A DNA stretch of 64,000 bases, taken from Eledone cirrhosa. Taxonomy: Eukaryota. Position numbers and translations under genes: made by a program. Location of the stretch: positions 168,268,001 to 168,332,000 of the forward strand of contig OZ024742.1 of the NCBI GenBank assembly GCA_964016885.1. The letters are read 5' to 3'. The notes below the pieces were generated by a model. The model did no database searches and had not been told where the DNA came from. It saw nothing but the letters and a program-made list of their open reading frames with translations. Shown in pieces: positions 1 to 33,828 of this stretch (position 1 is the stretch's first letter; every line of letters begins with the position of its first letter).

Positions 1-1175
1 AAATCCATTAAAAAAAATCCATTTAAAAAAAATTCATTAAAAAATCCATTAAAAATCCATTAAAAATCCATTAAAAATCCATTAAAAATCCATTAAAAAT
101 CCATTAAAAAATCCATTTAAAAAACCCATTAAAAAAAGCATTAAAAAATCCATTTAAAAAATCCATTAAAAAAAATCCATTTAAAACAACCCATTAAAAA
201 AAATCCATTAAAAAAAACCCATTAAAAAAATCCATTAAAAAAATCCATTTAAAAAATCCATTAAAAAAAATCCATTAAAAAAAATCCATAAAAAAATCCA
301 TTAAAAAAATCCATTAAAAATCCATTAAAAAAAATCCATTAAAAATCCATTAAAAAAAATCCATTTAAAAAAGCCATTAAAAAATCCATTAAAAATCCAT
401 TAAAAATCCATTAAAAAACCCATTAAAAAATCCATTTAAAAAATCCATTAAAAAAATCCATTAAAAAAAATCCATTTAAAAAAACCCATTAAAAAAAATC
501 CATTAAAAAAATCCATTAGAAAATCCATTAAAAAAATCCATTAAAAAAAATCGATAAAAAAAATCCATTAAAAAAAATCCATTAAAAAAAAATCCGTTAA
601 AAAAAATCCATTAAAAAAAAATCCGTTAAAAAAAATCCATTAAAAGCTCAATCAAAAACCCATTAAAAACGCCATAAAAAATCATTAAAATCCCATTAAA
701 GATACATTAAAGGCCCATTAAAAACGCCATAAAAAATCCATTAAAAAAATCCATTAAAAAAAACTCAATCAAAAACCCATAAAAGAAACATTAAAACAGC
801 ATTTAAAAAATCCATTAAAAATCCATTAAAAAAATCCATTTAAAAAACCCATTAAAAAAAATCCATAAAAAAAAACTCAATCAAAAACCCATAAAAGAAA
901 CATTAAAACAGCATTTAAAAAATCCATTAAAAAAATCCATTAAAAAAAATCCATTAAAAAAAATCCATTAAAAAAAACCCATTAAAAAAAATCCATTTAA
1001 AAAATCCATTTAAAAAATCCATTAAAAAAAATCCATTAAAAAAAATCCATAAAAAAATGCATTAAAAAAATCCATTAAAAAAATCCATTAAAAAAAATCC
1101 ATTAAAAATCCATTAAAAAAATCCATTTAAAAAAATCCATTAAAAAAAAATCCGTTAAAAAAAATCCATTAAAAA

Positions 1176-1305
1176 CTCAATCAAAAACCCAATTAAAAGG
1201 CCATAAAAGAAACATTAAAACAGCATTTAAAATACCATTAAAAACGCCATAAAAAATCATTAAAATCCCATTAAAAATACATTAAAGGCCCATTAAAAAC
1301 GCCAT
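1176..1305 (+). repeat. Diverged cassette, un-inserted (empty-site) form, copy 1
   Basis: Reads ctcaatcaaaaacccaattaaaaggccataaaagaaacattaaaacagcatttaaaataccattaaaaacgccataaaaaatcattaaaatcccattaaaaatacattaaaggcccattaaaaacgccat, with a single aatcattaaaat at 1255-1266. Confidence 0.93.
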
Positions 1306-1379
1306 AAAAAATCCATTAAAAAAAATCCATTAAAAAAAATCCATTAAAAAAAAATCCGTTAAAAAAAATCGATTAAAAA

Positions 1380-1509
1380 CTCAATCAAAAACCCAATTAA
1401 AAGGCCATAAAAGAAACATTAAAACAGCATTTAAAATACCATTAAAAACGCCATAAAAAATCATTAAAATCCCATTAAAAATACATTAAAGGCCCATTAA
1501 AAACGCCAT
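1380..1509 (+). repeat. Diverged cassette, un-inserted form, copy 2 (204 bp after copy 1)
   Basis: Same sequence as 1176-1305, again with no T-rich insertion. Confidence 0.93.
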
Positions 1510-2015
1510 AAAAAATCCATTAAAAAAAACTCAATCAAAAACCCATAAAAGAAACATTAAAACAGCATTTAAAAAACCCATTAAAAATTCATTAAAAAAA
1601 TCCATTTAAAAAATCCATTAAAAATCCATTAAAAATCCATTAAAAATCCATTAAAAATCCAATAAAAATTCATTAAAAAATCCATTTAAAAAAATCCATT
1701 AAAAAAATCCATTAAAAAATCCATTTAAAAAATCCATTTAAAAAATCCATAAAAAAATCCATTAAAAAAATCCATTAAAAATCCATTAAAAATCCATTAA
1801 AAAATCCATTAAAAAAACCCATTTAAAAAATCCAAAAAAATCCATTTAAAAAATCCATTAAAAAAAATCCATTTAAAAAAACCCATTAAAAAAAATCCAT
1901 TAAAAAAATCCATTTAAAAAATCCATTTAAAAAAATCCATTAAAAAAATCCATAAAAAAAATCCATTAAAAAAAATCCATTAAAAAAAAATCCGTTAAAG
2001 AAAATCCATTAAAAA

Positions 2016-2213
2016 CTCAATCAAAAACCCAATTAAAAGGCCATAAAAGAAACATTAAAACAGCATTTAAAATACCATTAAAAACGCCATAAAAAATCAT
2101 TAAAATTGTTTTTTATGAAATTTATAATATGGCTTTTAATGAACTTTTTAATGGGCTTTTAGAATCATTAAAATCCCATTAAAAATACATTAAAGGCCCA
2201 TTAAAAACGCCAT
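2016..2213 (+). repeat. Full ~198-bp diverged cassette carrying the inverted insertion (representative of 33 copies)
   Basis: Identical to 1176-1305 plus 68 extra bp (56-bp insert and a duplicated 12-mer). Preceded by a TCCGTT variant monomer. Confidence 0.95.
2107..2162 (-). repeat. 56-bp inverted satellite-derived insertion flanked by the direct repeat aatcattaaaat (2095-2106 and 2163-2174)
   Basis: Sequence is tgttttttatgaaatttataatatggcttttaatgaa(c/t)tttttaatgggcttttag; its reverse complement reads as degenerate monomers. Copy starts: 2107, 2853, 4597, 7509, 8946, 12118, 13627, 15146, 16217, 17818, 19751, 21362, 22870, 23952, 28090, 29377, 33087, 34169, 35769, 38604, 40099, 42185, 43680, 45771, 47279, 48926, 50433, 52342, 54005, 55459, 57140, 59910, 63011. 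Confidence 0.95.
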
Positions 2214-5200
2214 AAAAAATCCATTAAAAAAAATCCATTAAAAAAAAATTCAATCAAAAACCCATAAAAGAAACATTAAAACAGCATTAAAAAAACCCAT
2301 AAAAAATTCATTAAAAAAATCCATTTAAAAAATCCATTAAAAATCCATTAAAAATCCATTAAAAATCCATTAAAAATATATTAAAAACCCATTAAAAAAA
2401 ATCCATTAAAAAAATCCATTTAAAAAATCCATTAAAAAAAATCCATTAAAAAAATCCATAAAAAAATCCATTAAAAAAATCCATTAAAAATCCATTAAAA
2501 AAAATCCATTTAAAAAAGCCATTAAAAAATCCATTAAAAATCCATTAAAAATCCATTTAAAAAACCCATTAAAAAATCCATTAAAAAAATCCATTTAAAA
2601 AATCCATTAAAAAAAATCCATTAAAAAAAACCCATTAAAAAAATCCATTAAAAAAATCCATTTAAAAAATCCATTAAAAAAAATCCATTAAAAAAATCCA
2701 TAAAAAAATCCATTAAAAAAAATCCATTAAAAAAAAATCCGTTAAAAAAATCCATTAAAAACTCAATCAAAAACCCAATTAAAAGGCCATAAGAGAAACA
2801 TTAAAACAGCATTTAAAATACCATTAAAAACGCCATAAAAAATCATTAAAATTGTTTTTTATGAAATTTATAATATGGCTTTTAATGAATTTTTTAATGG
2901 GCTTTTAGAATCATTAAAATCCCATTAAAAATACATTAAAGGCCCATTAAAAACGCCATAAAAAATCCATTAAAAAAAAATTCAATCAAAAACCCATAAA
3001 AGAAACATTAAAACAGCATTTAAAAAACCCATTAAAAATTCATTAAAAAAATCCATTAAAAAAATCCATTTAAAAAAATCCATTAAAAAATCCATTAAAA
3101 ACCCATTAAAAATCCATTAAAAATCCATTAAAAATCCATTAAAAAATCCATTTAAAAAACCCATTAAAAAAATCCATTAAAAAATCCATTTAAAAATCCA
3201 TTAAAAAAAATCCATTTAAAAAACCCATTAAAAAAAATCCATTAAAAAAATCCATTTAAAAAATCCATAAAAAAAAATCCATAAAAAAAATCCATTAAAA
3301 AAAATCCATTAAAAAAAAAATCCGTTAAAAAAAATCCATTAAAAATCCATTAAAAATCCATTAAAAATCCATTAAAAATCCATTAAAAATCCATTTAAAA
3401 AAATCCATTAAAAAAATCCATTAAAAAAATCCATTTAAAAAATCCATTAAAAAAAATCCATTAAAAAAAATCCATTAAAAAAAATCCATTAAAAAAAAAT
3501 CAATTTAAAAAAATCCATTAAAAATCCATTAAAAAAATCCATTTAAAAAAATCCATTAAAAACCCATTAAAAATCCATTAAAAATCCATTAAAAAATCCA
3601 TTTAAAAAATCCATTAAAAAAAAATCCATTAAAAAAAACCCATTAAAAAAAATCCATTAAAAAAATCCATTTAAAAAATCCATTAAAAAAAATCCATTAA
3701 AAAAATCCATTAAAAAATCCATTAAAAATCCATTAAAAATCCATTAAAAAATCCATTTAAAAAAATCCATTAAAAAAATCCATTTAAAAAATCCATTAAA
3801 AAATCCATTTAAAAAATCCATTAAAAAATCCATTTAAAAAAATCCATTAAAAAAATCCATTTAAAAAATCCATTAAAAAATCCATTTAAAAAATCCATTA
3901 AAAATCCATTAAAAAAATCCATTTAAAAAATCCATTAAAAAATCCATTAAAAATCCATTAAAAATCCATTAAAAAATCCATTTAAAAAAATCCATTAAAA
4001 AAATCCATTTAAAAAATCCATTAAAAAATCCATTTAAAAAATCCATTAAAAAAAATGCATTAAAAAAAACCATTAAAAAATCCATTAAAAAAAATCCCAT
4101 TAAAAATACATTAAAGGCCCATTAAAAACGCCATAAAAAATCCATTAAAAAAATCCATTAAAAAAAAACTCAATCAAAAACCCATAAAAGAAACATTAAA
4201 ACAGCATTTAAAAAATCCATTAAAAAAATCCATTTAAAAAAATCCATTAAAAAATCCATTAAAAATCCATTAAAAATCCATTAAAAATCCATTAAAAATC
4301 CATTAAAAAATCCATTAAAAATCCATTAAAAATCCATTAAAAATCCATTAAAAAATCCATTTAAAAAAATCCATTAAAAAAATCCATTAAAAAATCCATT
4401 TAAAAAATCCATTTAAAAAAATCCATTAAAAAAAATCCATAAAAAAAAAATCCATTAAAAAAAATCCATTAAAAAAAAAATCCGTTAAAAAAAATCCATT
4501 AAAAACTCAATCAAACACCCAATTAAAAGGCCATAAAAGAAACATTAAAACAGCATTTAAAATACCATTAAAAACGCCATAAAAAATCATTAAAATTGTT
4601 TTTTATGAAATTTATAATATGGCTTTTAATGAACTTTTTAATGGGCTTTTAGAATCATTAAAATCCCATTAAAAATACATTAAAGGCCCATTAAAAACGC
4701 CATAAAAAATCCATTAAAAAAAATCCATTAAAAAAAAATTCAATCAAAAACCCATAAAAGAAACATTAAAACAGCATTTAAAAAACCCATTAAAAATTCA
4801 TTAAAAAAATCCATTTAAAAAATCCATTAAAAATCCATTAAAAATCCATTAAAAATCCATTAAAAATCCATTAAAAATAATCCATTAAAAAAAAATTCAA
4901 TCAAAAACCCATAAAAGAAACATTAAAACAGCATTTAAAAAATCCATTAAAAAAAATCCATTTAAAAAAATCCATTAAAAAAGCCATTAAAAATCCATTA
5001 AAAATCCATTTAAAAAATCCATTAAAAAAAAATCCATTAAAAAAAATCCATTAAAAATCCATTAAAAAAATCCATTTAAAAAAATCCATTAAAAAATCCA
5101 TTAAAAATCCATTAAAAATCCATTAAAAAATCCATTTAAAAAACCCATTAAAAAAATCCATTTAAAAAATCCATTAAAAAAAATCCATTTAAAAAAACCC

Positions 5201-5361
5201 ATTAAAAAAAATCCATTAAGAAAATCCATTTAAAAAATCCATTAAAAAAAATATATTAAAAAAAATCCATAAAAAAAAATCCATTAAAAAAAAATCCATT
5301 AAAAAAAAATCCGTTAAAAAAAATCCATTAAAAAAAAATCCGTTAAAAAAATCCATTAAAA

Positions 5362-8300
5362 GCTCAATCCCATTAAAAACGCCATAAAAATCATAAAAAT
5401 CCAATTAAAGATACATTAAAGGCCCATTAAAAACGCCATAAAAAATCCATTAAAAAAAACTCAATCAAAAACCCATAAAAGAAACATTAAAACAGCATTT
5501 AAAAAATCCATTAAAAATCCATTAAAAAAATCCATTTAATAAAATCCATTAAAAAATCCATTAAAAATCCATTAAAAATCCATTAAAAATCCATTAAAAG
5601 TCCATTAAAAATCCATTAAAATACCCATTTAAAAAAATCCATTAAAAAAATCCATTAAAAAAATCCATTAAAAAAGGCCATTAAAAAAATCCATTAAAAA
5701 AAGCCATTAAAAAAATCCATTAAAAAAAAATCCATTAAAAATCCATTAAAAAAATCCATTAAAAAAAATCCATTAAAAACCCATTAAAAATCCATTAAAA
5801 AATCCATTAAAAAACCCATTAAAAAAATCCATTAAAAAAATCCATTTAAAAAATCCATAAAAAAAAAATCCATTTAAAAAACCCATTAAAAAAAATCCAT
5901 TAAAAAAATCCATTTAAAAAAATCCATTAAAAAAATCCATTAAAAAAATCCATTTAAAAAATCCATAAAAAAAACCCATTAAAAAAAATCCATTAAAAAA
6001 AAAATCCATTAAAAAAAATCCATTAAAAAAAATCCATTAAAAATCCATTAAAAAAAATCCATTAAAAAAAAATTCATTAAAAAATCCATTAAAAATCCAT
6101 TAAAAATCCACTTAAAAAAATCCATTTAAAAAATCCATTTAAAAAACCCATTACAAAAAATACATTAAAAAAAATCCATAAAAAAAAAAGCCATTAAAAA
6201 AAATCCATTAAAAAAAATCTATTAAAAATCCATTAAAAATCCATTAAAAATCCATTAAAAATCCATTAAAAATCCATTAAAAATCCATTAAAAATCCATT
6301 AAAAATCCATTAAAATCCATTAAAAATCCATTAAAAATCCATTAAAAATCCATTAAAAATCCATTAAAAATCCATTAAAAATCCATTAAAAAATCCATTT
6401 AAGAAAATCCATTAAAAAATCCATTAAAAAATCCATTTAAAAAATCCATTAAAAAATCCATTAAAAAAAAATTCATTAAAAAAAAAATCCATTAAAAAAA
6501 ATCAATTTAAAAAAATCCATTAAAAATCCATTAAAAAAATCCATTTAAAAAAATCCATTAAAAACCCATTAAAAACCCATTAAAAATCCATTAAAAATCC
6601 ATTTAAAAAACCCATTAAAAAAAATCCATTAAAAAAAATCCATTTAAAAAATCCATTAAAAAAAATCCATTAAAAAAACCCATTAAAAAAATCCATTAAA
6701 AAAATCCATTTAAAAAATCCATTAAAAAAAATTCATTAAAAAAAAATCCATAAAAAAATCCATTAAAAAAATCCATTAAAAAAAATCCATTAAAAAAAAT
6801 CCATTAAAAATCCATTAAAAAAATCCATTTAAAAAAATCCATTAAAAAATCCATTAAAAAACCCATTAAAAATCCATTAAAAATCCATTAAAAATCCATT
6901 AAAAATCCATTTAAAAAACCCATTAAAAAAATCCATTTAAAAAACCCATTAAAAAAAGCCATTAAAAAATCCATTTAAAAAATCCATTAAAAAAAATCCA
7001 TTTAAAACAACCCATTAAAAAAAATCCATTAAAAAAAAACCCATTAAAAAAAATCCATTAAAAAAATCCATTTAAAAAATCCATTAAAAAAAATCCATTA
7101 AAAAAAATCCATAAAAAAATCCATTAAAAAAATCCATTAAAAATCCATTAAAAAAAATCCATTTAAAAAAGCCATTAAAAAATCCATTAAAAATCCATTA
7201 AAAATCCATTTAAAAAACCCATTAAAAAATCCATTAAAAAAATCCATTTAAAAAATCCATTAAAAAAAATCCATTTAAAAAAACCCATTAAAAAAAATCC
7301 ATTAAAAAAATCCATTTAAAAAATCCATTAAAAAAAATCCATTAAAAAAATCCATAAAAAAAATCCATTAAAAAAAATCCATTAAAAAAAAATCCGTTAA
7401 AAAAAATCCATTAAAAACTCAATCAAAAACCCAATTAAAAGGCCATAAAAGAAACATTAAAACAGCATTTAAAATACCATTAAAAACGCCATAAAAAATC
7501 ATTAAAATTGTTTTTTATGAAATTTATAATATGGCTTTTAATGAATTTTTTAATGGGCTTTTAGAATCATTAAAATCCCATTAAAAATACATTAAAGGCC
7601 CATTAAAAACGCCATAAAAAATCCATTAAAAAAATCCATTAAAAAAAACTCAATCAAAAACCCATAAAAGAAACATTAAAACAGCATTTAAAAAATCCAT
7701 TAAAAATCCATTAAAAAAAAATCCATTAAAAAAATCCATTAAAAATCCATTAAAAAAATCCATTTAAAAAAATCCATTAAAAAATCCATTAAAAACCCAT
7801 TAAAAATCCATTAAAAATCCATTAAAAATCCATTAAAAAATCCATTTAAAAAACCCATTAAAAAAATCCATTAAAAAATCCATTTAAAAATCCATTAAAA
7901 AAAATCCATTTAAAAAAACCCATTAAAAAAAATCCATTAAAAAAATCCATTTAAAAAATCCATAAAAAAAAATCCATAAAAAAAATCCATTAAAAAAAAT
8001 CCATTAAAAAAAAAATCCGTTAAAAAAAATCCATTAAAAATCCATTAAAAATCCATTAAAAATCCATTAAAAATCCATTAAAAAAATCCATTTAAAAAAA
8101 TCCATTAAAAACCCATTAAAAATCCATTAAAAAATCCATTAAAAAACCCATTAAAAAAAATCCATTAAAAAAATCCATTAAAAAAATCCATTAAAAAAAA
8201 TCCATTAAAAAAATCCATTTAAAAAATCCATTAAAAAAATCCATTAAAAAAAACTCAATCAAAAACCCATAAAAGAAACATTAAAACAGCATTTAAAAAA

Positions 8301-11300
8301 TCCATTAAAAATCCATTAAAAAAATCCATTTAAAAAATCCATTAAAAAATCCATTAAAAATCCATTAAAAATCCATTAAAAAATCCATTTAAAAAAATCC
8401 ATTAAAAAAATCCATTTAAAAAATCCATTAAAAAATCCATTTAAAAAATCCATTAAAAAAAATCCATTAAAAAAAACCATTAAAAAATCCATTAAAAAAA
8501 ATCCCATTAAAAATACATTAAAGGCCCATTAAAAACGCCATAAAAAATCCATTAAAAAAAAACTCAATCAAAAACCCATAAAAGAAACATTAAAACAGCA
8601 TTTAAAAAACCCATTAAAAATTCATTAAAAAAAATCCATTTAAAAAATCCATTAAAAAATACATTAAAAATCCATTAAAAATCCATTAAAAATCCATTAA
8701 AAAATCCAATTAAAAAAATCCATTAAAAAAATCCATTAAAAAATCCATTTAAAAAATCCATTAAAAAAAATCCATTAAAAAAAATCCATTAAAAAAAAAT
8801 CCATTAAAAAAAATCCATTAAAAAAAAAATCCGTTAAAAAAAATCCATTAAAAACTCAATCAAAAACCCAATTAAAAGGCCATAAAAGAAACATTAAAAC
8901 AGCATTTAAAATACCATTAAAAACGCCATAAAAAATCATTAAAATTGTTTTTTATGAAATTTATAATATGGCTTTTAATGAACTTTTTAATGGGCTTTTA
9001 GAATCATTAAAATCCCATTAAAAATACATTAAAGGCCCATTAAAAACGCCATAAAAAATCCATTAAAAAAAATCCATTAAAAAAAATTCAATCAAAAACC
9101 CATAAAAGAAACATTAAAACAGCATTTAAAAAACCCATTAAAAATTCATTAAAAAAATCCATTTAAAAAATCCATTAAAAATCCATTAAAAATCCATTAA
9201 AAATCCATTAAAAATATATTAAAAATCCATTAAAAAAAATCCATTAAAAAAATCCATTTAAAAAAATCCATTAAAAACCCATTAAAAATTCATTAAAAAA
9301 TCCATTTAAAAACCCATTAAAAAAAATCCATTAAAAAAATACATTTAAAAAATCCATTAAAAAAAAATCCATTAAAAAAACCCATTAAAAAAAATCCATT
9401 AAAAAAATCCATTTAAAAAATCCATTAAAAAAAATCCATTAAAAAAAATCCATTAAAAGCTCAATCAAAAACCCATTAAAAACGCCATAAAAAATCATTA
9501 AAATCCCATTAAAAATACATTAAAGGCCCATTAAAAACGCCATAAAAAATCAATTGAAAAAATCCATTAAAAAAAAACTCAATCAAAAACCCATAAAAGA
9601 AACATTAAAACAGCATTTAAAAATCCATTAAAAATCCATTAAAAATCCATTAAAAATCCATTAAAAATTCATTAAAAAATCCATTTAAAAAACCCATTTA
9701 AAAAACCATTTAAAAAATCCATTAAAAAAAATCCATTTAAAAAAACCCATTAAGAAAAATCCATTAAAAATCCATTAAAAAAAATCCATTTAAAAAAATT
9801 CATTAAAAAATCCATTAAAAATCCATTAAAAATCCATTAAAAATCCATTAAAAATCCATTAAAAAATCCATTTAAAAAACCCATTAAAAAAAGCCATTAA
9901 AAAATCCATTTAAAAAATCCATTAAAAAAAATCCAGTTAAAACAACCCATTAAAAAAAATCCATTAAAAGCTCAATCCCATTAAAAACGCCATAAAAATC
10001 ATAAAAATCCAATTAAAGATACATTAAAGGCCCATTAAAAACGCCATAAAAAATCCATTAAAAAAAACTCAATCAAAAACCCATAAAAGAAACATTAAAA
10101 CAGCATTTAAAAAATCCATTAAAAATCCATTAAAAAAATCCATTTAATAAAATCCATTAAAAAATCCATTAAAAATCCATTAAAAATCCATTAAAAATCC
10201 ATTAAAAGTCCATTAAAAATCCATTAAAATACCCATTTAAAAAAATCCATTAAAAAAATCCATTAAAAAAATCCATTAAAAAAGGCCATTAAAAAAATCC
10301 ATTAAAAAAAGCCATTAAAAAAATCCATTAAAAAAAAATCCATTAAAAATCCATTAAAAAAATCCATTAAAAAAAATCCATTAAAAACCCATTAAAAATC
10401 CATTAAAAAATCCATTAAAAAACCCATTAAAAAAAATCCATTAAAAAAATCCATTTAAAAAATCCATAAAAAAAAAATCCATTTAAAAAACCCATTAAAA
10501 AAAATCCATTAAAAAAATCCATTTAAAAAAATCCATTAAAAAAATCCATTAAAAAAATCCATTTAAAAAATCCATAAAAAAAACCCATTAAAAAAAATCC
10601 ATTAAAAAAAAAATCCATTAAAAAAAATCCATTAAAAAAAATCCATTAAAAATCCATTAAAAAAAATCCATTAAAAAAAAATTCATTAAAAAATCCATTA
10701 AAAATCCATTAAAAATCCACTTAAAAAAATCCATTTAAAAAATCCATTTAAAAAACCCATTACAAAAAATACATTAAAAAAAATCCATAAAAAAAAAAGC
10801 CATTAAAAAAAATCCATTAAAAAAAATCTATTAAAAATCCATTAAAAATCCATTAAAAATCCATTAAAAATCCATTAAAAATCCATTAAAAATCCATTAA
10901 AAATCCATTAAAAATCCATTAAAATCCATTAAAAATCCATTAAAAATCCATTAAAAATCCATTAAAAATCCATTAAAAATCCATTAAAAATCCATTAAAA
11001 AATCCATTTAAGAAAATCCATTAAAAAATCCATTAAAAAATCCATTTAAAAAATCCATTAAAAAATCCATTAAAAAAAAATTCATTAAAAAAAAAATCCA
11101 TTAAAAAAAATCAATTTAAAAAAATCCATTAAAAATCCATTAAAAAAATCCATTTAAAAAAATCCATTAAAAACCCATTAAAAACCCATTAAAAATCCAT
11201 TAAAAATCCATTTAAAAAACCCATTAAAAAAAATCCATTAAAAAAAATCCATTTAAAAAATCCATTAAAAAAAATCCATTAAAAAAACCCATTAAAAAAA

Positions 11301-14300
11301 TCCATTAAAAAAATCCATTTAAAAAATCCATTAAAAAAAATTCATTAAAAAAAAATCCATAAAAAAATCCATTAAAAAAATCCATTAAAAAAAATCCATT
11401 AAAAAAAATCCATTAAAAATCCATTAAAAAAATCCATTTAAAAAAATCCATTAAAAAATCCATTAAAAAACCCATTAAAAATCCATTAAAAATCCATTAA
11501 AAATCCATTAAAAATCCATTTAAAAAACCCATTAAAAAAATCCATTTAAAAAACCCATTAAAAAAAGCCATTAAAAAATCCATTTAAAAAATCCATTAAA
11601 AAAAATCCATTTAAAACAACCCATTAAAAAAAATCCATTAAAAAAAAACCCATTAAAAAAAATCCATTAAAAAAATCCATTTAAAAAATCCATTAAAAAA
11701 AATCCATTAAAAAAAATCCATAAAAAAATCCATTAAAAAAATCCATTAAAAATCCATTAAAAAAAATCCATTTAAAAAAGCCATTAAAAAATCCATTAAA
11801 AATCCATTAAAAATCCATTTAAAAAACCCATTAAAAAATCCATTAAAAAAATCCATTTAAAAAATCCATTAAAAAAAATCCATTTAAAAAAACCCATTAA
11901 AAAAAATCCATTAAAAAAATCCATTTAAAAAATCCATTAAAAAAAATCCATTAAAAAAATCCATAAAAAAAATCCATTAAAAAAAATCCATTAAAAAAAA
12001 ATCCGTTAAAAAAAATCCATTAAAAACTCAATCAAAAACCCAATTAAAAGGCCATAAAAGAAACATTAAAACAGCATTTAAAATACCATTAAAAACGCCA
12101 TAAAAAATCATTAAAATTGTTTTTTATGAAATTTATAATATGGCTTTTAATGAATTTTTTAATGGGCTTTTAGAATCATTAAAATCCCATTAAAAATACA
12201 TTAAAGGCCCATTAAAAACGCCATAAAAAATCCATTAAAAAAATCCATTAAAAAAAACTCAATCAAAAACCCATAAAAGAAACATTAAAACAGCATTTAA
12301 AAAATCCATTAAAAATCCATTAAAAAAAAATCCATTAAAAAAATCCATTAAAAATCCATTAAAAAAATCCATTTAAAAAAATCCATTAAAAAATCCATTA
12401 AAAACCCATTAAAAATCCATTAAAAATCCATTAAAAATCCATTAAAAAATCCATTTAAAAAACCCATTAAAAAAATCCATTAAAAAATCCATTTAAAAAT
12501 CCATTAAAAAAAATCCATTTAAAAAAACCCATTAAAAAAAATCCATTAAAAAAATCCATTTAAAAAATCCATAAAAAAAAATCCATAAAAAAAATCCATT
12601 AAAAAAAATCCATTAAAAAAAAAATCCGTTAAAAAAAATCCATTAAAAATCCATTAAAAATCCATTAAAAATCCATTAAAAATCCATTAAAAAAATCCAT
12701 TTAAAAAAATCCATTAAAAACCCATTAAAAATCCATTAAAAAATCCATTAAAAAACCCATTAAAAAAAATCCATTAAAAAAAATCCATTAAAAAAATCCA
12801 TTAAAAAAAATCCATTTAAAAAACCCATTAAAAAAAATTCATTAAAAAAAAACCCATTAAAAAAAAACCCATTAAAAAAAATCCATTAAAAAAATCCATT
12901 TAAAAAATCCATTAAAAAAATCCATTAAAAAAAACTCAATCAAAAACCCATAAAAGAAACATTAAAACAGCATTTAAAAAATCCATTAAAAATCCATTAA
13001 AAAAATCCATTTAAAAAATCCATTAAAAAATCCATTAAAAATCCATTAAAAATCCATTAAAAAATCCATTTAAAAAAATCCATTAAAAAAATCCATTTAA
13101 AAAATCCATTAAAAAATCCATTTAAAAAATCCATTAAAAAAAATCCATTAAAAAAAACCATTAAAAAATCCATTAAAAAAAATCCCATTAAAAATACATT
13201 AAAGGCCCATTAAAAACGCCATAAAAAATCCATTAAAAAAAAACTCAATCAAAAACCCATAAAAGAAACATTAAAACAGCATTTAAAAAACCCATTAAAA
13301 ATTCATTAAAAAAAATCCATTTAAAAAATCCATTAAAAAATACATTAAAAATCCATTAAAAATCCATTAAAAATCCATTAAAAAATCCAATTAAAAAAAT
13401 CCATTAAAAAAATCCATTAAAAAATCCATTTAAAAAATCCATTAAAAAAAATCCATTAAAAAAAATCCATTAAAAAAAAATCCATTAAAAAAAATCCATT
13501 AAAAAAAAAATCCGTTAAAAAAAATCCATTAAAAACTCAATCAAAAACCCAATTAAAAGGCCATAAAAGAAACATTAAAACAGCATTTAAAATACCATTA
13601 AAAACGCCATAAAAAATCATTAAAATTGTTTTTTATGAAATTTATAATATGGCTTTTAATGAACTTTTTAATGGGCTTTTAGAATCATTAAAATCCCATT
13701 AAAAATACATTAAAGGCCCATTAAAAATACATTAAAGGCCCATTAAAAACGCCATAAAAAATCCATTAAAAAAAATCCATTAAAAAAAATTCAATCAAAA
13801 ACCCATAAAAGAAACATTAAAACAGCATTTAAAAAACCCATTAAAAATTCATTAAAAAAATCCATTTAAAAAATCCATTAAAAATCCATTAAAAATCCAT
13901 TAAAAATCCATTAAAAATATATTAAAAATCCATTAAAAAAAATCCATTAAAAAAATCCATTTAAAAAAATCCATTAAAAACCCATTAAAAATCCATTAAA
14001 AAATCCATTTAAAAACCCATTAAAAAAAATCCATTAAAAAAATACATTTAAAAAATCCATTAAAAAAAAATCCATTAAAAAAACCCATTAAAAAAAATCC
14101 ATTAAAAAAATCCATTTAAAAAATCCATTAAAAAAAATCCATTAAAAAAAATCCATTAAAAGCTCAATCAAAAACCCATTAAAAACGCCATAAAAAATCA
14201 TTAAAATCCCATTAAAAATACATTAAAGGCCCATTAAAAACGCCATAAAAAATCCATTGAAAAAATCCATTAAAAAAAAACTCAATCAAAAACCCATAAA

Positions 14301-14670
14301 AGAAACATTAAAACAGCATTTAAAAATCCATTAAAAATCCATTAAAAATCCATTAAAAATCCATTAAAAATTCATTAAAAAATCCATTTAAAAAACCCAT
14401 TTAAAAAACCATTTAAAAAATCCATTAAAAAAAATCCATTTAAAAAAACCCATTAAGAAAAATCCATTAAAAATCCATTAAAAAAAATCCATTTAAAAAA
14501 ATTCATTAAAAAATCCATTAAAAATCCATTAAAAATCCATTAAAAATCCATTAAAAATCCATTAAAAAATCCATTTAAAAAACCCATTAAAAAAAGCCAT
14601 TAAAAAATCCATTTAAAAAATCCATTAAAAAAAATCCAGTTAAAACAACCCATTAAAAAAAATCCATAAA
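5362..14670 (+). repeat. Higher-order tandem duplication, unit ~4.6-4.7 kb (about 5362-9969 and 9970-14670)
   Basis: Shared rare markers at offset 4608-4609: gctcaatccc 5362/9970, ccactt 6111/10720, aagaaaa 6403/11012, insertion 7509/12118. The offset rises to 4681 and then 4703 after small indels. Confidence 0.88.
6218..6387 (+). repeat. Pure 11-bp (TCCATTAAAAA)n phased A-tract block (representative of 9 copies)
   Basis: A TCTATT head at 6218, then TCCATT at 6229, 6240, 6251, 6262, 6273, 6284, 6295, 6306, 6316, 6327, 6338, 6349, 6360, 6371, 6382. Other copies start at 10827, 18459, 25993, 30982, 37336, 40917, 58643, 61743. Confidence 0.92.
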
Positions 14671-17600
14671 AAAAAACCCATTAAAAAAAATCCATTAAAA
14701 AAATCCATTTAAAAAATCCATTAAAAAAAATCCATTAAAAAAAATCCATAAAAAAATCCATTAAAAAAATCCATTAAAAATCCATTAAAAAAAATCCATT
14801 TAAAAAAGCCATTAAAAAATCCATTAAAAATCCATTAAAAATCCATTTAAAAAACCCATTAAAAAATCCATTAAAAAAATCCATTTAAAAAATCCATTAA
14901 AAAAAATCCATTTAAAAAAACCCATTAAAAAAAATCCATTAAAAAAATCCATTTAAAAAATCCATTAAAAGAAATCCATTAAAAAAATCCATTAAAAAAA
15001 TCCATTAAAAAAAATCCATTAAAAAAAAATCCGTTAAAAAAAATCCATTAAAAACTCAATCAAAAACCCAATTAAAAGGCCATAAAAGAAACATTAAAAC
15101 AGCATTTAAAATACCATTAAAAACGCCATAAAAAATCATTAAAATTGTTTTTTATGAAATTTATAATATGGCTTTTAATGAATTTTTTAATGGGCTTTTA
15201 GAATCATTAAAATCCCATTAAAAATACATTAAAGGCCCATTAAAAACGCCATAAAAAATCCATTAAAAAAATCCATTAAAAAAAAACTCAATCAAAAACC
15301 CATAAAAGAAACATTAAAACAGCATTTAAAAAATCCATTAAAAATCCATTAAAAAAAAATCCATTAAAAAAATCCATTAAAAATCCATTAAAAAAATCCA
15401 TGTAAAAAAATCCATTAAAAAATCCATTAAAAACCCATTAAAAATCCATTAAAAATCCATTAAAAATCCATTAAAAAATCCATTTAAAAAACCCATTAAA
15501 AAAATCCATTAAAAAATCCATTTAAAAATCCATTAAAAAAAATCCATTTAAAAAAACCCATTAAAAAAAATCCATTAAAAAAATCCATTTAAAAAATCCA
15601 TAAAAAAAAATCCATAAAAAAAATCCATTAAAAAAAATCCATTAAAAAAAAAATCCGTTAAAAAAAATCCATTAAAAATCCATTAAAAATCCATTAAAAA
15701 TCCATTAAAAATCCATTAAAAATCCATTAAAAAACCCATTTAAAAAAATCCATTAAAAAAATCCATTAAAAAAATACATTAAAAAAATCCATTAAAAAAA
15801 TCCATTAAAAAAAATCCATTAAAAAAATCCATTAAAAAAAATCCATTAAAAATCCATTAAAAAAATCCATTTAAAAAAATCGATTAAAAACCCATTAAAA
15901 ATCCATTAAAAATCCATTTAAAAAACCCATAAAAAAATCCATTAAAAAAATCCATTTAAAAAATCCATTAAAAAAAATCCATTTAAAAAAACCCATTAAA
16001 AAAAATCCATTAAAAAAATCCATTTAAAAAATCCATTAAAAAAAATCCATTAAAAAAATCCATAAAAAAAATCCATTAAAAAAAATCCATTAAAAAAAAA
16101 TCCGTTAAAAAAAATCCATTAAAAACTCAATCAAAAACCCAATTAAAAGGCCATAAAAGAAACATTAAAACAGCATTTAAAATACCATTAAAAACGCCAT
16201 AAAAAATCATTAAAATTGTTTTTTATGAAATTTATAATATGGCTTTTAATGAATTTTTTAATGGGCTTTTAGAATCATTAAAATCCCATTAAAAATACAT
16301 TAAAGGCCCATTAAAAACGCCATAAAAAATCCATTAAAAAAATCCATTAAAAAAAAACTCAATCAAAAACCCATAAAAGAAACATTAAAACAGCATTTAA
16401 AAAATCCATTAAAAATCCATTAAAAAAAAATCCATTAAAAAAATCCATTAAAAATCCATTAAAAAAATCCATTTAAAAAAATCCATTAAAAATCCATTAA
16501 AAACCCATTAAAAATCCATTAAAAATCCATTAAAAATCCATTAAAAAATCCATTTAAAAAACCCATTAAAAAAATCCATTAAAAAATCCATTTAAAAATC
16601 CAGTAAAAAAAATCCATTTAAAAAAACCCATTAAAAAAATCCATTAAAAAAATCCATTTAAAAAATCAATAAAAAAAAATCCATAAAAAAATCCATTAAA
16701 AAAAATCCATTAAAAAAAAAATCCGTTAAAAAAAATCCATTAAAAATCCATTAAAAATCCATTAAAAATCCATTAAAAATCCATTTAAAAAAATCCATTA
16801 AAAAAATCCATTAAAAAAATCCATTTAAAAAATCCATTAAAAAAAATCCATTAAAAAAAAATCCATTAAAAAAAATCCATTAAAAAAAATCAATTTAAAA
16901 AAATCCATTAAAAATCCATTAAAAAAATCCATTCAAAAAAATCCATTAAAAACCCATTAAAAATCCATTAAAAATCCATTAAAAAATCCATTTAAAAAAA
17001 CCATTAAAAAAAATCCATTAAAAAAATCCATTTAAAAAATCCATTAAAAAAAATCCATTAAAAAAAACTCAATCAAAAACCCATAAAAGAAACATTAAAA
17101 CAGCATTTAAAAAATCCATTAAAAATCCATTAAAAAAATCCATTTAAAAAATCCATTAAAAAATCCATTAAAAATCCATTAAAAATCCATTAAAAAATCC
17201 ATTTAAAAAAATCCATTAAAAAAATCCATTTAAAAAATCCATTAAAAAATCCATTTAAAAAATCCATTAAAAAAAATCCATTAAAAAAAACCATTAAAAA
17301 ATCCATTAAAAAAAATCCCATTAAAAATACATTAAAGGCCCATTAAAAACGCCATAAAAAATCCATTAAAAAAATCCATTAAAAAAAAACTCAATCAAAA
17401 ACCCATAAAAGAAACATTAAAACAGCATTTAAAAAATCCATTAAAAAAATCCATTTAAAAAAATCCATTAAAAAATCCATTAAAAATCCATTAAAAATCC
17501 ATTAAAAATCCATTAAAAATCCATTAAAAAATCCATTAAAAATCCATTAAAAATCCATTAAAAATCCATTAAAAAATCCATTTAAAAAAATCCATTAAAA

Positions 17601-20600
17601 AAATCCATTAAAAAATCCATTTAAAAAATCCATTTAAAAAAATCCATTAAAAAAAATCCATTAAAAAAAAATCCATTAAAAAAAATCCATTAAAAAAAAA
17701 ATCCGTTAAAAAAAATCCATTAAAAACTCAATCAAACACCCAATTAAAAGGCCATAAAAGAAACATTAAAACAGCATTTAAAATACCATTAAAAACGCCA
17801 TAAAAAATCATTAAAATTGTTTTTTATGAAATTTATAATATGGCTTTTAATGAACTTTTTAATGGGCTTTTAGAATCATTAAAATCCCATTAAAAATACA
17901 TTAAAGGCCATAAAAAATCCATTAAAAAAAATCCATTAAAAAAAAATTCAATCAAAAACCCATAAAAGAAACATTAAAACAGCATTTAAAAAACCCATTA
18001 AAAATTCATTAAAAAAATCCATTTAAAAAATCCATTAAAAATCCATTAAAAATCCATTAAAAATCCATTAAAAATCCATTAAAAATAATCCATTAAAAAA
18101 AAATTCAATCAAAAACCCATAAAAGAAACATTAAAACAGCATTTAAAAAATCCATTTAAAAAAATCCATTAAAAAAGCCATTAAAAATCCATTAAAAATC
18201 CATTAAAAAAAAATCCATTAAAAAAAATCCATTAAAAATCCATTAAAAAAATCCATTTAAAAAAATCCATTAAAAAATCCATTAAAAATCCATTAAAAAT
18301 CCATTAAAAAATCCATTTAAAAAAATCCATTAAAAATCCATTAAAAATCCACTTAAAAAAATCCATTTAAAAAATCCATTTAAAAAACCCATTACAAAAA
18401 ATACATTAAAAAAAATCCATAAAAAAAAAAGCCATTAAAAAAAATCCATTAAAAAAAATCTATTAAAAATCCATTAAAAATCCATTAAAAATCCATTAAA
18501 AATCCATTAAAAATCCATTAAAAATCCATTAAAAATCCATTAAAAATCCATTAAAATCCATTAAAAATCCATTAAAAATCCATTAAAAATCCATTAAAAA
18601 TCCATTAAAAATCCATTAAAAATCCATTAAAAAATCCATTTAAGAAAATCCATTAAAAAATCCATTAAAAAATCCATTTAAAAAATCCATTAAAAAATCC
18701 ATTAAAAAAAAATTCATTAAAAAAAAAATCCATTAAAAAAAATCAATTTAAAAAAATCCATTAAAAATCCATTAAAAAAATCCATTTAAAAAAATCCATT
18801 AAAAACCCATTAAAAACCCATTAAAAATCCATTAAAAATCCATTTAAAAAACCCATTAAAAAAAATCCATTAAAAAAAATCCATTTAAAAAATCCATTAA
18901 AAAAAATCCATTAAAAAAACCCATTAAAAAAATCCATTAAAAAAATCCATTTAAAAAATCCATTAAAAAAAATTCATTAAAAAAAAATCCATAAAAAAAT
19001 CCATTAAAAAAATCCATTAAAAAAAATCCATTAAAAAAAATCCATTAAAAATCCATTAAAAAAATCCATTTAAAAAAATCCATTAAAAAATCCATTAAAA
19101 AACCCATTAAAAATCCATTAAAAATCCATTAAAAATCCATTAAAAATCCATTTAAAAAACCCATTAAAAAAATCCATTTAAAAAACCCATTAAAAAAAGC
19201 CATTAAAAAATCCATTTAAAAAATCCATTAAAAAAAATCCATTTAAAACAACCCATTAAAAAAAATCCATTAAAAAAAAACCCATTAAAAAAAATCCATT
19301 AAAAAAATCCATTTAAAAAATCCATTAAAAAAAATCCATTAAAAAAAATCCATAAAAAAATCCATTAAAAAAATCCATTAAAAATCCATTAAAAAAAATC
19401 CATTTAAAAAAGCCATTAAAAAATCCATTAAAAATCCATTAAAAATCCATTTAAAAAACCCATTAAAAAATCCATTAAAAAAATCCATTTAAAAAATCCA
19501 TTAAAAAAAATCCATTTAAAAAAACCCATTAAAAAAAATCCATTAAAAAAATCCATTTAAAAAATCCATTAAAAAAAATCCATTAAAAAAATCCATAAAA
19601 AAAATCCATTAAAAAAAATCCATTAAAAAAAAATCCGTTAAAAAAAAATCCATTAAAAACTCAATCAAAAACCCAATTAAAAGGCCATAAAAGAAACATT
19701 AAAACAGCATTTAAAATACCATTAAAAACGCCATAAAAAATCATTAAAATTGTTTTTTATGAAATTTATAATATGGCTTTTAATGAATTTTTTAATGGGC
19801 TTTTAGAATCATTAAAATCCCATTAAAAATACATTAAAGGCCCATTAAAAACGCCATAAAAAATCCATTAAAAAAATCCATTAAAAAAAACTCAATCAAA
19901 AACCCATAAAAGAAACATTAAAACAGCATTTAATAAATCCATTAAAAATCCATTAAAAAAAAATCCATTAAAAAAATCCATTAAAAATCCATTAAAAAAA
20001 TCCATTTAAAAAAATCCATTAAAAAATCCATTAAAAACCCATTAAAAATCCATTAAAAATCCATTAAAAATCCATTAAAAAATCCATTTAAAAAACCCAT
20101 TAAAAAAATCCATTAAAAAATCCATTTAAAAATCCATTAAAAAAAATCCATTTAAAAAAACCCATTAAAAAAAATCCATTAAAAAAATCCATTTAAAAAA
20201 TCCATAAAAAAAAATCCATAAAAAAAATCCATTAAAAAAAATCCATTAAAAAAAAAATCCGTTAAAAAAAATCCATTAAAAATCCATTAAAAATCCATTA
20301 AAAATCCATTAAAAATCCATTAAAAATCCATTAAAAAACCCATTTAAAAAAATCCATTAAAAAAATCCATTAAAAAAATCCATTAAAAAAATCCATTAAA
20401 AAAATCCATTAAAAAAAATCCATTAAAAAAATCCATTAAAAAAAATCCATTAAAAATCCATTAAAAAAATCCATTTAAAAAAATCCATTAAAAACCCATT
20501 AAAAATCCATTAAAAAATCCATTAAAAAACCCATTAAAAAAAATCGATTAAAAAAATCCATTAAAACAATCCATTAAAAAAAATCCATTTAAAAAACCCA

Positions 20601-23600
20601 TTAAAAAAAATCCATTAAAAAAAACCCATTAAAAAAAACCCATTAAAAAAAATCCATTAAAAAAATCCATTTAAAAAATCCATTAAAAAAATCCATTAAA
20701 AAAAACTCAATCAAAAACCCATAAAAGAAACATTAAAACAGCATTTAAAAAATCCATTAAAAATCCATTAAAAAAATCCATTAAAAATCCATTAAAAAAT
20801 CCATTTAAAAAAATCCATTAAAAAAATCCATTTAAAAAATCCATTAAAAAATCCATTTAAAAAATCCATTAAAAAAAATCCATTAAAAAAAACCATTAAA
20901 AAATCCATTAAAAAAAATCCCATTAAAAATACATTAAAGGCCCATTAAAAACGCCATAAAAAATCCATTAAAAAAAAACTCAATCAAAAACCCATAAAAG
21001 AAACATTAAAACAGCATTTAAAAAACCCATTAAAAATTCATTAAAAAAAATCCATTTAAAAAATCCATTAAAAAATACATTAAAAATCCATTAAAAATCC
21101 ATTAAAAATCCATTAAAAAATCCAATTAAAAAAATCCATTAAAAAAATCCATTAAAAAATCCATTTAAAAAATCCATTAAAAAAAATCCATTAAAAAAAA
21201 TCCATTAAAAAAAAATCCATTAAAAAAAATCCATTAAAAAAAAAATCCGTTAAAAAAAATCCATTAAAAACTCATTCAAAAACCTAATTAAAAGGCCATA
21301 AAAGAAACATTAAAACAGCATTTAAAATACCATTAAAAACGCCATAAAAAATCATTAAAATTGTTTTTTATGAAATTTATAATATGGCTTTTAATGAACT
21401 TTTTAATGGGCTTTTAGAATCATTAAAATCCCATTAAAAATACATTAAAGGCCCATTAAAAACGCCATAAAAAATCCATTAAAAAAAATCCATTAAAAAA
21501 AATTCAATCAAAAACCCATAAAAGAAACATTAAAACAGCATTTAAAAAACCCATTAAAAATTCATTAAAAAAATCCATTTAAAAAATCCATTAAAAATCC
21601 ATTAAAAATCCATTAAAAATCCATTAAAAATATATTAAAAATCCATTAAAAAAAATCCATTAAAAAAATCCATTTAAAAAAATCCATTAAAAACCCATTA
21701 AAAATCCATTAAAAAATCCATTTAAAAACCCATTAAAAAAAATCCATTAAAAAAATACATTTAAAAAATCCATTAAAAAAAAATCCATTTAAAAAACCCA
21801 TTAAAAAAAATCCATTAAAAAAATCCATTTAAAAAATCCATTAAAAAAAATCCATTAAAAAAAATCCATTAAAAGCTCAATCAAAAACCCATTAAAAACG
21901 CCATAAAAAATCATTAAAATCCCATTAAAAATACATTAAAGGCCCATTAAAAACGCCATAAAAAATCCATTGAAAAAATCCATTAAAAAAAAACTCAATC
22001 AAAAACCCATAAAAGAAACATTAAAACAGCATTTAAAAATCCATTAAAAATCCATTAAAAATCCATTAAAAATCCATTAAAAATTCATTAAAAAATCCAT
22101 TTAAAAAACCCATTTAAAAAACCATTTAAAAAATCCATTAAAAAAAATCCATTTAAAAAAACCCATTAAGAAAAATCCATTAAAAATCCATTAAAAAAAA
22201 TCCATTTAAAAAAATTCATTAAAAAATCCATTAAAAATCCATTAAAAATCCATTAAAAATCCATTAAAAATCCATTAAAAATCCATTAAAAAATCCATTT
22301 AAAAAACCCATTAAAAAAAGCCATTAAAAAATCCATTTAAAAAATCCATTAAAAAAAATCCAGTTAAAACAACCCATTAAAAAAAATCCATTAAAAAAAA
22401 CCCATTAAAAAAAATCCATTAAAAAAATCCATTTAAAAAATCCATTGAAAAAAATCCATTAAAAAAAATCCATAAAAAAATCCATTAAAAAAATCCATTA
22501 AAAATCCATTAAAAAAAATCCATTTAAAAAAGCCATTAAAAAATCCATTAAAAATCCATTAAAAATCCATTTAAAAAACCCATTAAAAAATCCATTAAAA
22601 AAATCCATTTAAAAAATCCATTAAAAAAAATCCATTTAAAAAAACCCATTAAAAAAAATCCATTAAAAAAATCCATTTAAAAAATCCATTAAAAAAAATC
22701 CATTAAAAAAATCCATTAAAAAAATCCATTAAAAAAAATCCATTAAAAAAAAATCCGTTAAAAAAAATCCATTAAAAACTCAATCAAAAACCCAATTAAA
22801 AGGCCATAAAAGAAACATTAAAACAGCATTTAAAATACCATTAAAAACGCCATAAAAAATCATTAAAATTGTTTTTTATGAAATTTATAATATGGCTTTT
22901 AATGAATTTTTTAATGGGCTTTTAGAATCATTAAAATCCCATTAAAAATACATTAAAGGCCCATTAAAAACGCCATAAAAAATCCATTAAAAAAATCCAT
23001 TAAAAAAAAACTCAATCAAAAACCCATAAAAGAAACATTAAAACAGCATTTAAAAAATCCATTAAAAATCCATTAAAAAAAAATCCATTAAAAAAATCCA
23101 TTAAAAATCCATTAAAAAAATCCATTTAAAAAAATCCATTAAAAAATCCATTAAAAACCCATTAAAAATCCATTAAAAATCCATTAAAAATCCATTAAAA
23201 AATCCATTTAAAAAACCCATTAAAAAAATCCATTAAAAAATCCATTTAAAAATCCATTAAAAAAAATCCATTTAAAAAAACCCATTAAAAAAAATCCATT
23301 AAAAAAATCCATTTAAAAAATCCATAAAAAAAAATCCATAAAAAAAATCCATTAAAAAAAATCCATTAAAAAAAAAATCCGTTAAAAAAAATCCATTAAA
23401 AATCCATTAAAAATCCATTAAAAATCCATTAAAAATCCATTAAAAATCCATTAAAAATCCATTAAAAAACCCATTTAAAAAAATCCATTAAAAAAATCCA
23501 TTAAAAAAATCCATTAAAAAAATCCATTAAAAAAATCCATTAAAAAAAATCCATTAAAAAAATCCATTAAAAAAAATCCATTAAAAATCCATTAAAAAAA

Positions 23601-33700: not shown

Positions 33701-33828
33701 TCCATTAAAAAAATCCATTAAAAAAATCCATTAAAAAAATCCATTAAAAAAATCCATTAAAAAAAATCCATTAAAAAAATCCATTAAAAAAAATCCATTA
33801 AAAATCCATTAAAAAAATCCATTTAAAA
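24749..33828 (+). repeat. Higher-order duplication at offset ~4989 (about 24749-28820 and 29738-33828)
   Basis: tcgatt 25101/30090, ttagaaaa 25612/30601, acgcatt 26433/31422, actcattt 27037/32026; insertion 28090/33087 (offset 4997). Confidence 0.87.

What the first reader, a model, noticed from the sequence alone, without database searches (positions are those of the whole stretch)
2095..2174. Single inverted 56-bp insertion with a 12-bp target-site-like duplication, amplified to 33 copies
Seen: the empty site (1255-1266) has one aatcattaaaat; the filled site has aatcattaaaat + 56 bp + aatcattaaaat. The insert's reverse complement is ctaaaa-gcccattaaaaa-gttcattaaaa-gccatattataaa-tttcataaaaaa-ca, i.e. 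diverged monomers of the same family on the opposite strand. I did not find this exact string in forward orientation in the window. It is the only strand switch in 64 kb. Established: short templated insertions flanked by duplications are produced by template switching/MMBIR, by polymerase theta-mediated end joining, and by target-primed reverse transcription (7-20 bp TSDs). Inference: one event captured a fragment of a related satellite locus or transcript, and array duplication then spread it. Less likely, the empty form arose by deletion between the 12-mers.
Basis: partly seen in the sequence, partly recalled or inferred. Interest (0 to 1): 0.72.

Follow-up and report, generated by a model that had tools for sequence, protein, structure and literature searches.

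The report
Copied-in repair patch amplified by satellite
A 56-base piece identical to part of a larger repeat on other chromosomes sits at the same spot in 293 units of a 758-kb satellite array; it was likely copied in once by a DNA replication or repair slip and then multiplied with the array, so it is an ordinary kind of mutation that serves as a traceable marker of how this satellite likely arose.

Summary
In detail: 33 filled and 15 empty sites in the window. The whole assembled array (C3, 757.8 kb) has 293 filled sites, all with the same two junctions, and neither junction occurs elsewhere in the assembly.

The donor is a ~6.2-kb non-coding macrosatellite (129 exact junction matches; the 100 listed lie on C2 and C4). 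Its unit holds the 56-mer in an already inverted arm, 2.8 kb from the empty target on the same strand. The inversion is therefore inherited from the donor, not made at insertion.

Empty is ancestral. Parent units are empty, the array's exact empty cassette lies on C2 416 nt from a donor, and a marker on 186 of 284 filled cassettes is on 0 of 78 empty ones.

The junctions have 3-nt and 0-nt microhomology, with no poly(A) and no L1-type cut site. Best reading: one DNA-templated template switch that left a 12-nt duplication (0.6). Main rival: duplication then deletion (0.3). It is not a mobile element.

The mechanism is known. The added value is a staged series from parent unit to large satellite within one genome.

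The parts
1..64000 (+). 11-13-bp satellite (main monomer AAAATCCATT with variable A-run); a slice of the array at C3:167,989,125-168,746,924, which ends at a 200-N assembly gap
1991..2207 (+). Cassette derived from positions ~370-516 of the 6,171-bp parent unit, here carrying the insert; has one extra T that 29 of 31 matches in the parent arrays lack
2095..2106 (+). Left copy of the duplicated 12-mer; its last three bases (AAT, 2104-2106) also precede the donor, giving 3-nt microhomology
2107..2162 (+). 56-nt insert, 56/56 identical to parent unit 3288-3343 on the same strand as the target; its monomers read on the minus strand. The 33 copies start at 2107, 2853, 4597, 7509, 8946, 12118, 13627, 15146, 16217, 17818, 19751, 21362, 22870, 23952, 28090, 29377, 33087, 34169, 35769, 38604, 40099, 42185, 43680, 45771, 47279, 48926, 50433, 52342, 54005, 55459, 57140, 59910, 63011
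2163..2174 (+). Right copy of the 12-mer; this junction has no microhomology and no added bases
2075..2221 (+). 24-bp direct repeat (2075-2098 and 2198-2221) around the filled site; two array copies have lost the whole block between these repeats
2249..2288 (+). Shortened cassette ('stub') found only in this array (850 exact) and at the C2 sister locus (3); here with the derived TT allele linked to filled sites
1255..1266 (+). Empty site with full left context (also 1459-1470). The other empties, at 680, 9493, 14196, 21909, 25166, 30155, 32138, 36547, 46317, 49473, 54538, 57930 and 60905, have shortened left contexts

Best explanation
The 56-mer is an exact copy of a segment of a 6.2-kb parent macrosatellite, likely placed once into an empty cassette by a DNA-templated template switch during replication or break repair, and then likely multiplied passively to 293 copies as the satellite array grew. 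Shown: donor identity, same-strand layout of donor and target in the parent, identical junctions in all copies, and no junction outside the array. Strongly inferred: empty came first. Inferred mechanism: a strand ending in the 12-mer re-primed on the donor through AAT, copied 56 nt, and rejoined 12 nt behind the point where it left. The most likely setting is a locus like C2:245,158,000-245,159,250, where the donor lies 416 nt upstream of the array's exact empty cassette. There the event would be a 484-nt backward slip followed by a forward skip over a 416-nt imperfect inverted repeat. A copy from any other parent unit into a staggered break would give the same product. No function is indicated.
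For: Donor with its own flanks in C2 and C4 units; 20 of 21 donor sites read are identical to the insert. Target cassette in the same unit and strand, empty in all 31 matches read (one place fetched twice). 293 of 294 reverse tracts in the whole array are this insert. Genome-wide junction counts at up to 2 mismatches (293 left, 292 right, none reverse) equal the counts inside the array. The commonest allele is the donor allele (174 of 292 gap-free copies). The array-type empty site occurs outside C3 only twice, both at C2:245.158 Mb beside a donor. 95% of that segment's 25-mers are in the C3 array, against 43% in 100 kb of other C2 samples, 40 kb of which are an unrelated satellite. Linked marker: 186 of 284 filled against 0 of 78 empty cassettes (Fisher p 4e-30, copies not independent). 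Alleles shortA, shortB and G occur in 0 of 293 filled sites. Left and right junction contigs have about equal depth in run X1, 872 and 920. Microhomology at one end only fits the hybrid synthesis and end-joining mechanism in PMC11724301 (abstract).
Against: One step and two steps give the same final sequence. Microhomology of 3 nt or more arises by chance at 4-7% of entry points. The symmetric geometry at C2 (donor end 212 nt before the strand switch, 12-mer 204-216 nt after it) has a chance of 1.5-20% depending on the null. The predicted fold puts the donor end within about 10 nt of the 12-mer only in tightly cropped windows, and the register moved in the wider ones. No filled site exists on C2, and the C2 segment could be a piece copied back from C3. 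One contig of depth 4.6 in run X4 shows the left junction followed by the donor's own downstream flank, which is the intermediate that the two-step rival predicts.
Confidence: 0.6

Rival explanations
1. Two ordinary rearrangements at different times. One is a tandem duplication (or a 2.8-3.2-kb deletion between neighbouring units) that joined the 12-mer to the donor start through AAT. The other is a deletion that joined the donor end to the 12-mer, possibly across the 416-nt inverted repeat. The 'target-site duplication' is then a leftover.
For: The final sequence is the same. Slippage-type duplications and deletions are common around this cassette. X4 contig 9 (374 nt, depth 4.56, no differences) runs 12-mer, donor, donor downstream flank; the right junction was not seen in X4 although scaling from X1 would predict a depth of about 8 (the scaling is my estimate).
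Against: No half-junction molecule in the assembly at up to 2 mismatches. Equal junction depths in X1. In X4 the donor's upstream flank is also present (contig 10), depth is 3-6 with many holes, the sequence is 99-100% like organism A, and the tool drops some records, so contig 9 may be an assembly path or trace DNA.
Confidence: 0.3
2. An RNA from the parent repeat was reverse-transcribed into the target by a LINE enzyme (target-primed reverse transcription, or an RNA patch).
For: A 12-bp duplication is within the class 1 TSIP definition of at least 5 bp (PMC5110952, passages). A 3-nt primer match exists.
Against: No non-templated poly(A), no AATAAA in either orientation of the insert, and neither possible nick reads TTTT/A (read). 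The insert ends inside degenerate monomers, at no evident transcript end.
Confidence: 0.05
3. The filled form is ancestral in the array, and the empty sites arose by deletion between the 12-mers.
For: A 68-nt deletion between 12-nt direct repeats is mechanistically easy (general knowledge). Two copies did lose the insert, though through the longer 24-bp repeat.
Against: Parent units and the C2 sister locus are empty. 0 of 78 full-context empties carry the marker found on 186 of 284 filled ones. Empties carry further alleles never seen with the insert.
Confidence: 0.03
4. The 56-mer is a tiny mobile element.
For: Insert flanked by a direct repeat, many copies.
Against: One target site only. Of 408 genome hits for the 33-nt core, 283 are in the array, and the other 125 (75 reverse, 50 forward) are covered by 129 parent-context hits (76 and 53 on the matching strands); this match is by count, since 29 places were not listed. 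No terminal inverted repeat and no tail.
Confidence: 0.01

Closest known systems
Tandem duplication compound (TD+) with templated insertion, as defined in SIQ (PMC9442499, passages) and seen at staggered breaks (Schimmel et al. 2021, PMC8355091, passages)
   Same: An insertion of which one part repeats the flank exactly (12 nt) and the rest is copied from other genomic DNA; short or no microhomology.
   Different: Here it is a natural, inherited event inside a satellite, amplified 293-fold. No genetic evidence names a pathway, and SIQ itself declines to assign one from junctions alone.
Templated insertions at yeast breaks, local foldback and distant (Yu et al., PMC11724301, abstract and outline)
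   Same: One end primed by microhomology, the other joined without it; short templated insert.
   Different: Not a local foldback of about 5-34 bp: the insert matches the parent donor 56/56 and has no local inverted source.
Human templated sequence insertion polymorphisms, classes 1 and 2 (Onozawa and Aplan 2016, PMC5110952, first quarter of the text and passages)
   Same: A short copy of another locus with the donor left intact; filled and empty alleles coexist.
   Different: Has the duplication of class 1 but not its poly(A), signal or TTTT/A site; has the microhomology of class 2, which lacks duplications.
Satellites grown from short tandem arrays inside larger repeats (Vondrak et al., PMC7004042, abstract and outline)
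   Same: A short internal repeat of a larger unit expands now and then into long arrays.
   Different: The host here is a tandem, non-coding 6.2-kb macrosatellite with inverted arms, not a dispersed LTR retrotransposon, and several intermediate sizes are present in one assembly.

Membership tests
TD+ / templated insertion (SIQ definitions) | Part of the insertion exactly repeats a junction flank (6 nt or more) | tested here: met
   Both 12-mers identical in 286 of 292 gap-free copies
TD+ / templated insertion (SIQ definitions) | The rest of the insertion matches nearby DNA | tested here: inconclusive
   Donor 416 nt from the target at the C2 sister locus and 2.8 kb away in parent units, but none on C3; where the event took place is inferred
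Polymerase theta-mediated end joining | Dependence on Pol theta | not testable with these tools
   Needs genetics; the junctions (3 and 0 nt) do not name an enzyme
Class 1 TSIP / LINE-mediated TPRT | Target duplication of at least 5 bp | tested here: met
   12 bp
Class 1 TSIP / LINE-mediated TPRT | Non-templated poly(A) of 10-40 nt with an upstream AATAAA | tested here: not met
   All 56 nt are templated; no tail and no AATAAA on either strand
Class 1 TSIP / LINE-mediated TPRT | Insertion at 5'-TTTT/A-3' | tested here: not met
   The possible nicks read AAAT/C (top) and GATT/T (bottom) (read)
Class 2 TSIP | No target duplication | tested here: not met
   12-nt duplication present
Class 2 TSIP | Microhomology, microdeletion or added bases at the junctions | tested here: inconclusive
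   3 nt at the left junction (4-7% by chance), none at the right, no added bases
Local foldback inversion at a break | Insert is the inverted copy of sequence beside the break | tested here: not met
   No reverse match in the window with up to 10 substitutions; exact same-strand donor elsewhere
Non-autonomous transposon (MITE or SINE) | Independent insertions at different targets | tested here: not met
Non-autonomous transposon (MITE or SINE) | Terminal inverted repeats or a 3' tail | tested here: not met
   None in the 56-mer
Satellite derived from an internal repeat of a larger element | Seed repeat present, short, inside a larger repeated unit, and expanded elsewhere | tested here: met
   One monomer in most parent units; 0.3-0.4-kb expansions in L002, L040, L042, L043; ~20-kb blocks and a longer array on C2; 758 kb on C3
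Satellite derived from an internal repeat of a larger element | Host is an LTR retrotransposon or other transposon | tested here: inconclusive
   Longest stop-free frame 110 codons, in microsatellite; array ends fall at different unit positions; no repeat library was on hand to compare
Satellite derived from an internal repeat of a larger element | Expansion in (peri)centromeric regions | not tested
   All arrays sit among other satellites; centromere positions are unknown

The most novel reading that the evidence does not exclude
One assembly holds the whole birth series of a satellite: a single monomer in a 6.2-kb macrosatellite, sub-kilobase expansions, 20-kb blocks, and a 758-kb array on another chromosome seeded by a 1.3-kb segment that still stands on C2. 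The insert would record a slip back and a skip across an inherited inverted repeat, that is, a target-site-like duplication made with no staggered cut, and its half-finished form would survive in the DNA of run X4.
Probability: 0.25. Interest if true: 0.55.

Novelty: new member of a known kind. Interest (0 to 1): 0.36.

Why it matters
The event type is known, and no function is indicated. Its use is as a lineage mark. It ties a 758-kb satellite on C3 to one 1.3-kb segment on C2 and to a parent macrosatellite, and it orders later variants along the array. Filled-versus-empty counts in other individuals would measure turnover. It also shows that an insert between two direct repeats, and an apparent inversion in a satellite, need imply neither transposition nor a strand switch at the site.

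Tried and rejected
Local fold-back origin. The insert pairs well with the forward monomers beside it (-23.9 against -1.0 kcal/mol for the empty site, over 140 and 72 nt), but any reversed monomer would, and the exact donor is elsewhere.

Special inverted similarity between target and donor ends. The registers over the donor ends tie with others, or rank below them, among 120-125 registers. Rejected.

Hairpin register at C2. It was seen in tight windows and lost in six wider ones, so it is not evidence.

Parent as a transposon with fixed ends. The array ends differ (unit positions about 6108, 4140 twice, 2796, 3193, 5765, 935, and two complex ends), and there is no ORF. Not supported.

Outgroup from public runs. 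No RNA holder was listed. X6 and X7 (organisms C, D) gave only short chance pieces. X8 (RAD reads, organism A) shows the empty allele and the donor flank but samples too narrowly to judge filled sites. X5 has no cover over insert or donor, and the tool warns that holes prove nothing. X4 is unresolved. X1 may be the assembly's own sample.

The DNA search with a unique parent piece scored only 40 of 500 candidates and did not show the 29 unlisted parent places. One search was a script error, redone. The last lines (insert diversity) were wrong through a regex flag and were redone.

Paper searches. Searches found no paper. One search found one unrelated listing. One search found four listings; one was checked by passage and was not relevant. 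I found no report of such an insertion traced within a satellite, but only open-licence papers were searched and no supplements were read. Earlier-finding look-ups near the window and by donor sequence were empty.

Full report
Observation. The window is one satellite of 11-13-bp monomers. At 2095-2174 a 12-mer is followed by 56 nt and the same 12-mer; at 1255-1266 the 12-mer stands once. There are 33 filled sites (13 exact, 19 with C>T at insert position 38, 1 other) and 15 empty ones. The insert's reverse complement is not in the window at up to 10 substitutions. No reverse match to the three longer monomer motifs tested lies outside the inserts.

The array. The window is C3:168,268,001-168,332,000 of a 3.0-Gb assembly. 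I fetched the whole array, C3:167,989,125-168,746,924 (757,800 bp). It starts abruptly after a different 10-bp satellite and ends at a 200-N gap, so it may be longer. Of 294 reverse-oriented tracts, 293 are this insert with the same two junctions; the other is a point change in a monomer. 174 of 292 gap-free copies have no change in the 56-mer, and the mean difference is 0.75% per base, mostly two shared variants (83 and 26 copies). Genome-wide counts of the left and right junction at up to 2 mismatches are 293 and 292, none reverse, and they equal the counts inside the array. So there is one target site, and the assembly holds no molecule with only one junction. The last ~40 kb has empty sites only.

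The donor. A 33-nt part of the insert has 408 exact hits, 283 of them in the array. The others that I read lie in a ~6.2-kb tandem unit. The donor's own left flank has 129 exact hits: 56 listed on C2 in three clusters, 44 on C4 in three clusters, 29 not listed, none on C3. One unit (6,171 bp) consists of a 3.27-kb arm of degenerate forward monomers, a ~470-bp reverse arm, a TTTTA tract, a CT-rich piece, a second reverse arm and TA/CA microsatellite. It has no stop-free frame over 110 codons, and its arrays end at different unit positions. The donor is at 3288-3343, about 20 nt inside the first reverse arm; 20 of 21 donor sites read are identical to the insert, and one has an internal deletion. 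The target cassette is at ~370-516 of the same unit, on the same strand, and is empty in all 31 matches read, one place being fetched twice. Apart from single short matches to monomer-like sequence, these two pieces are the only parent sequence in the C3 array. The opposite orientation of the insert's monomers is thus a property of the donor, and no strand change is needed at the event.

Which came first. The array's cassette differs from the parent by an extra T inside the 12-mer and by a different right end. This exact empty form has 87 hits in the array and two outside it, at C2:245,158,043 and 245,158,738. There a donor is followed by 212 nt of its reverse arm, a switch to satellite monomers, and 204 nt later the empty 12-mer. 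The array's shortened 'stub' cassette occurs 850 times in the array and three times at this locus, nowhere else. 95% of the segment's 25-mers are in the C3 array. It has the ancestral state at each marker scored. Within the array, a derived stub allele follows 186 of 284 filled cassettes and 0 of 78 empty ones with full left context. Nine cassettes had no stub nearby and were left out. The allele also occurs 139 times with no insert in the 210 nt before it, so it is not exclusive to filled sites. Three other alleles occur only without the insert (0 of 293 filled). Copies are not independent, but precise loss of the insert is clearly rare; the two losses seen removed the whole block between 24-bp repeats. 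Empty is ancestral (inference, strong). That the C2 segment is the source rather than a piece copied back is likely but not shown.

Junctions and mechanism. The left junction has 3 nt of microhomology, which 4-7% of random entry points would give; the right has none, and no base is added. The class 1 TSIP features other than the duplication are absent (PMC5110952), so reverse transcription is unlikely (0.05). The product fits the TD+ class with a templated part (PMC9442499; PMC8355091). Microhomology at one end only is like the hybrid route in yeast (PMC11724301, abstract). I commit to one DNA-templated template switch (0.6). At a C2-like locus it would be a 484-nt slip back through AAT, 56 nt of copying, and a skip over the 416-nt imperfect inverted repeat. 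Serial replication slippage, MMBIR and palindrome-promoted deletion are recalled names for such routes and come from no call. The symmetry of 212 against 204-216 nt is suggestive only: chance 1.5-20% depending on the null, and the folding register did not hold in wider windows. A staggered break patched from any parent unit is also possible. Two separate rearrangements give the same letters (0.3).

Public runs. In X1 (organism A, perhaps the assembly's own sample), contigs over the left and right junction have depths 872 and 920, and those over the donor's flanks 465 and 495. The ratio of 1.9 is close to the 2.3 in the assembly, so the filled sites are not an assembly artefact. In X4 (labelled organism B), one contig of depth 4.56 runs from the 12-mer through the donor into the donor's downstream flank, and the right junction was not seen. 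This is what the two-step rival predicts. But the donor's upstream flank is there too, depth is 3-6 with holes, the sequence is 99-100% like organism A, and the tool drops records, so a graph path or trace DNA explains it as well. It stays open.

Wider picture. The satellite's monomer stands once in most parent units, just before the cassette. In L002, L040, L042 and L043 it has grown to 0.3-0.4 kb with a partly repeated cassette. At C2:245.16-245.20 Mb, ~20-kb blocks separate truncated units. Samples at 245.21-245.50 Mb are pure monomer without cassette, and another satellite has taken over by 245.6 Mb. This resembles satellites grown from repeats inside retrotransposons (PMC7004042, abstract), though the host here is a tandem non-coding unit. 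How the seed reached C3 is not shown; excision and rolling-circle amplification is a recalled possibility. Earlier notes on this genome describe similar patches in other macrosatellites and call the animal a likely octopus relative; I tested neither claim.

Verdict. A real, single, templated insertion with a 12-nt duplication, carried to 293 copies by satellite growth; not a mobile element and not an inversion made on the spot. New member of a known kind; interest 0.36, mostly for the traceable history.

Noticed in passing
L001 1-7711 and the other C2/C4 parent arrays: A 6.2-kb non-coding macrosatellite built of degenerate 10-13-bp monomers in one forward and two reverse arms plus microsatellites; at least six tandem arrays with different end points, set among other satellites.
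   Followed up: partly
L002, L040, L042, L043, L010, L035-L037, L057-L061: One monomer of the parent unit expands at the same spot to 0.3-0.4 kb, ~20 kb and probably over 300 kb: staged birth of the window's satellite.
   Followed up: partly
L120 8957-7600, minus strand (C2:245.1576-245.1590 Mb): A 1.3-kb segment with two empty cassettes and three stubs is the only relative of the C3 array's landmarks outside C3; a third cassette there has its own small insertion beside the 12-mer site.
   Followed up: yes
C3:168,529,993 and 168,553,072: Two cassettes lost the insert together with the whole block between the 24-bp direct repeats.
   Followed up: yes
C3 array: Insert variants are layered along the array: G>C at position 2 is confined to the left ~120 kb, C>T at 38 makes up 19 of 33 copies in the window against 83 of 292 overall, and the right end has empty sites only.
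   Followed up: partly
L006, L008, L025 (C3, from at least 167.90 Mb to 167,989,124): A different 10-bp A-rich satellite with the same strand bias abuts the array's left end with a sharp junction.
   Followed up: no
L026, L028-L032, L045, L046, L110-L117: A ~26-bp satellite of 38% GC flanks the C3 array on both sides, in opposite orientation left and right, and also borders C2 parent arrays.
   Followed up: no
L001 1-2035 and L009: A 220-bp CpG-rich satellite abuts the C2 parent array at 245.057 Mb.
   Followed up: no
L039 2380 and L041 2759: Two C4 arrays 2.4 Mb apart begin at the same unit position (4140) after the same kind of short-repeat satellite, which suggests a shared origin or a segmental duplication.
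   Followed up: no
Run X8 on window 2030-2260: RAD reads carry cassette pieces that run on into unrelated sequence, so short dispersed relatives may exist.
   Followed up: no
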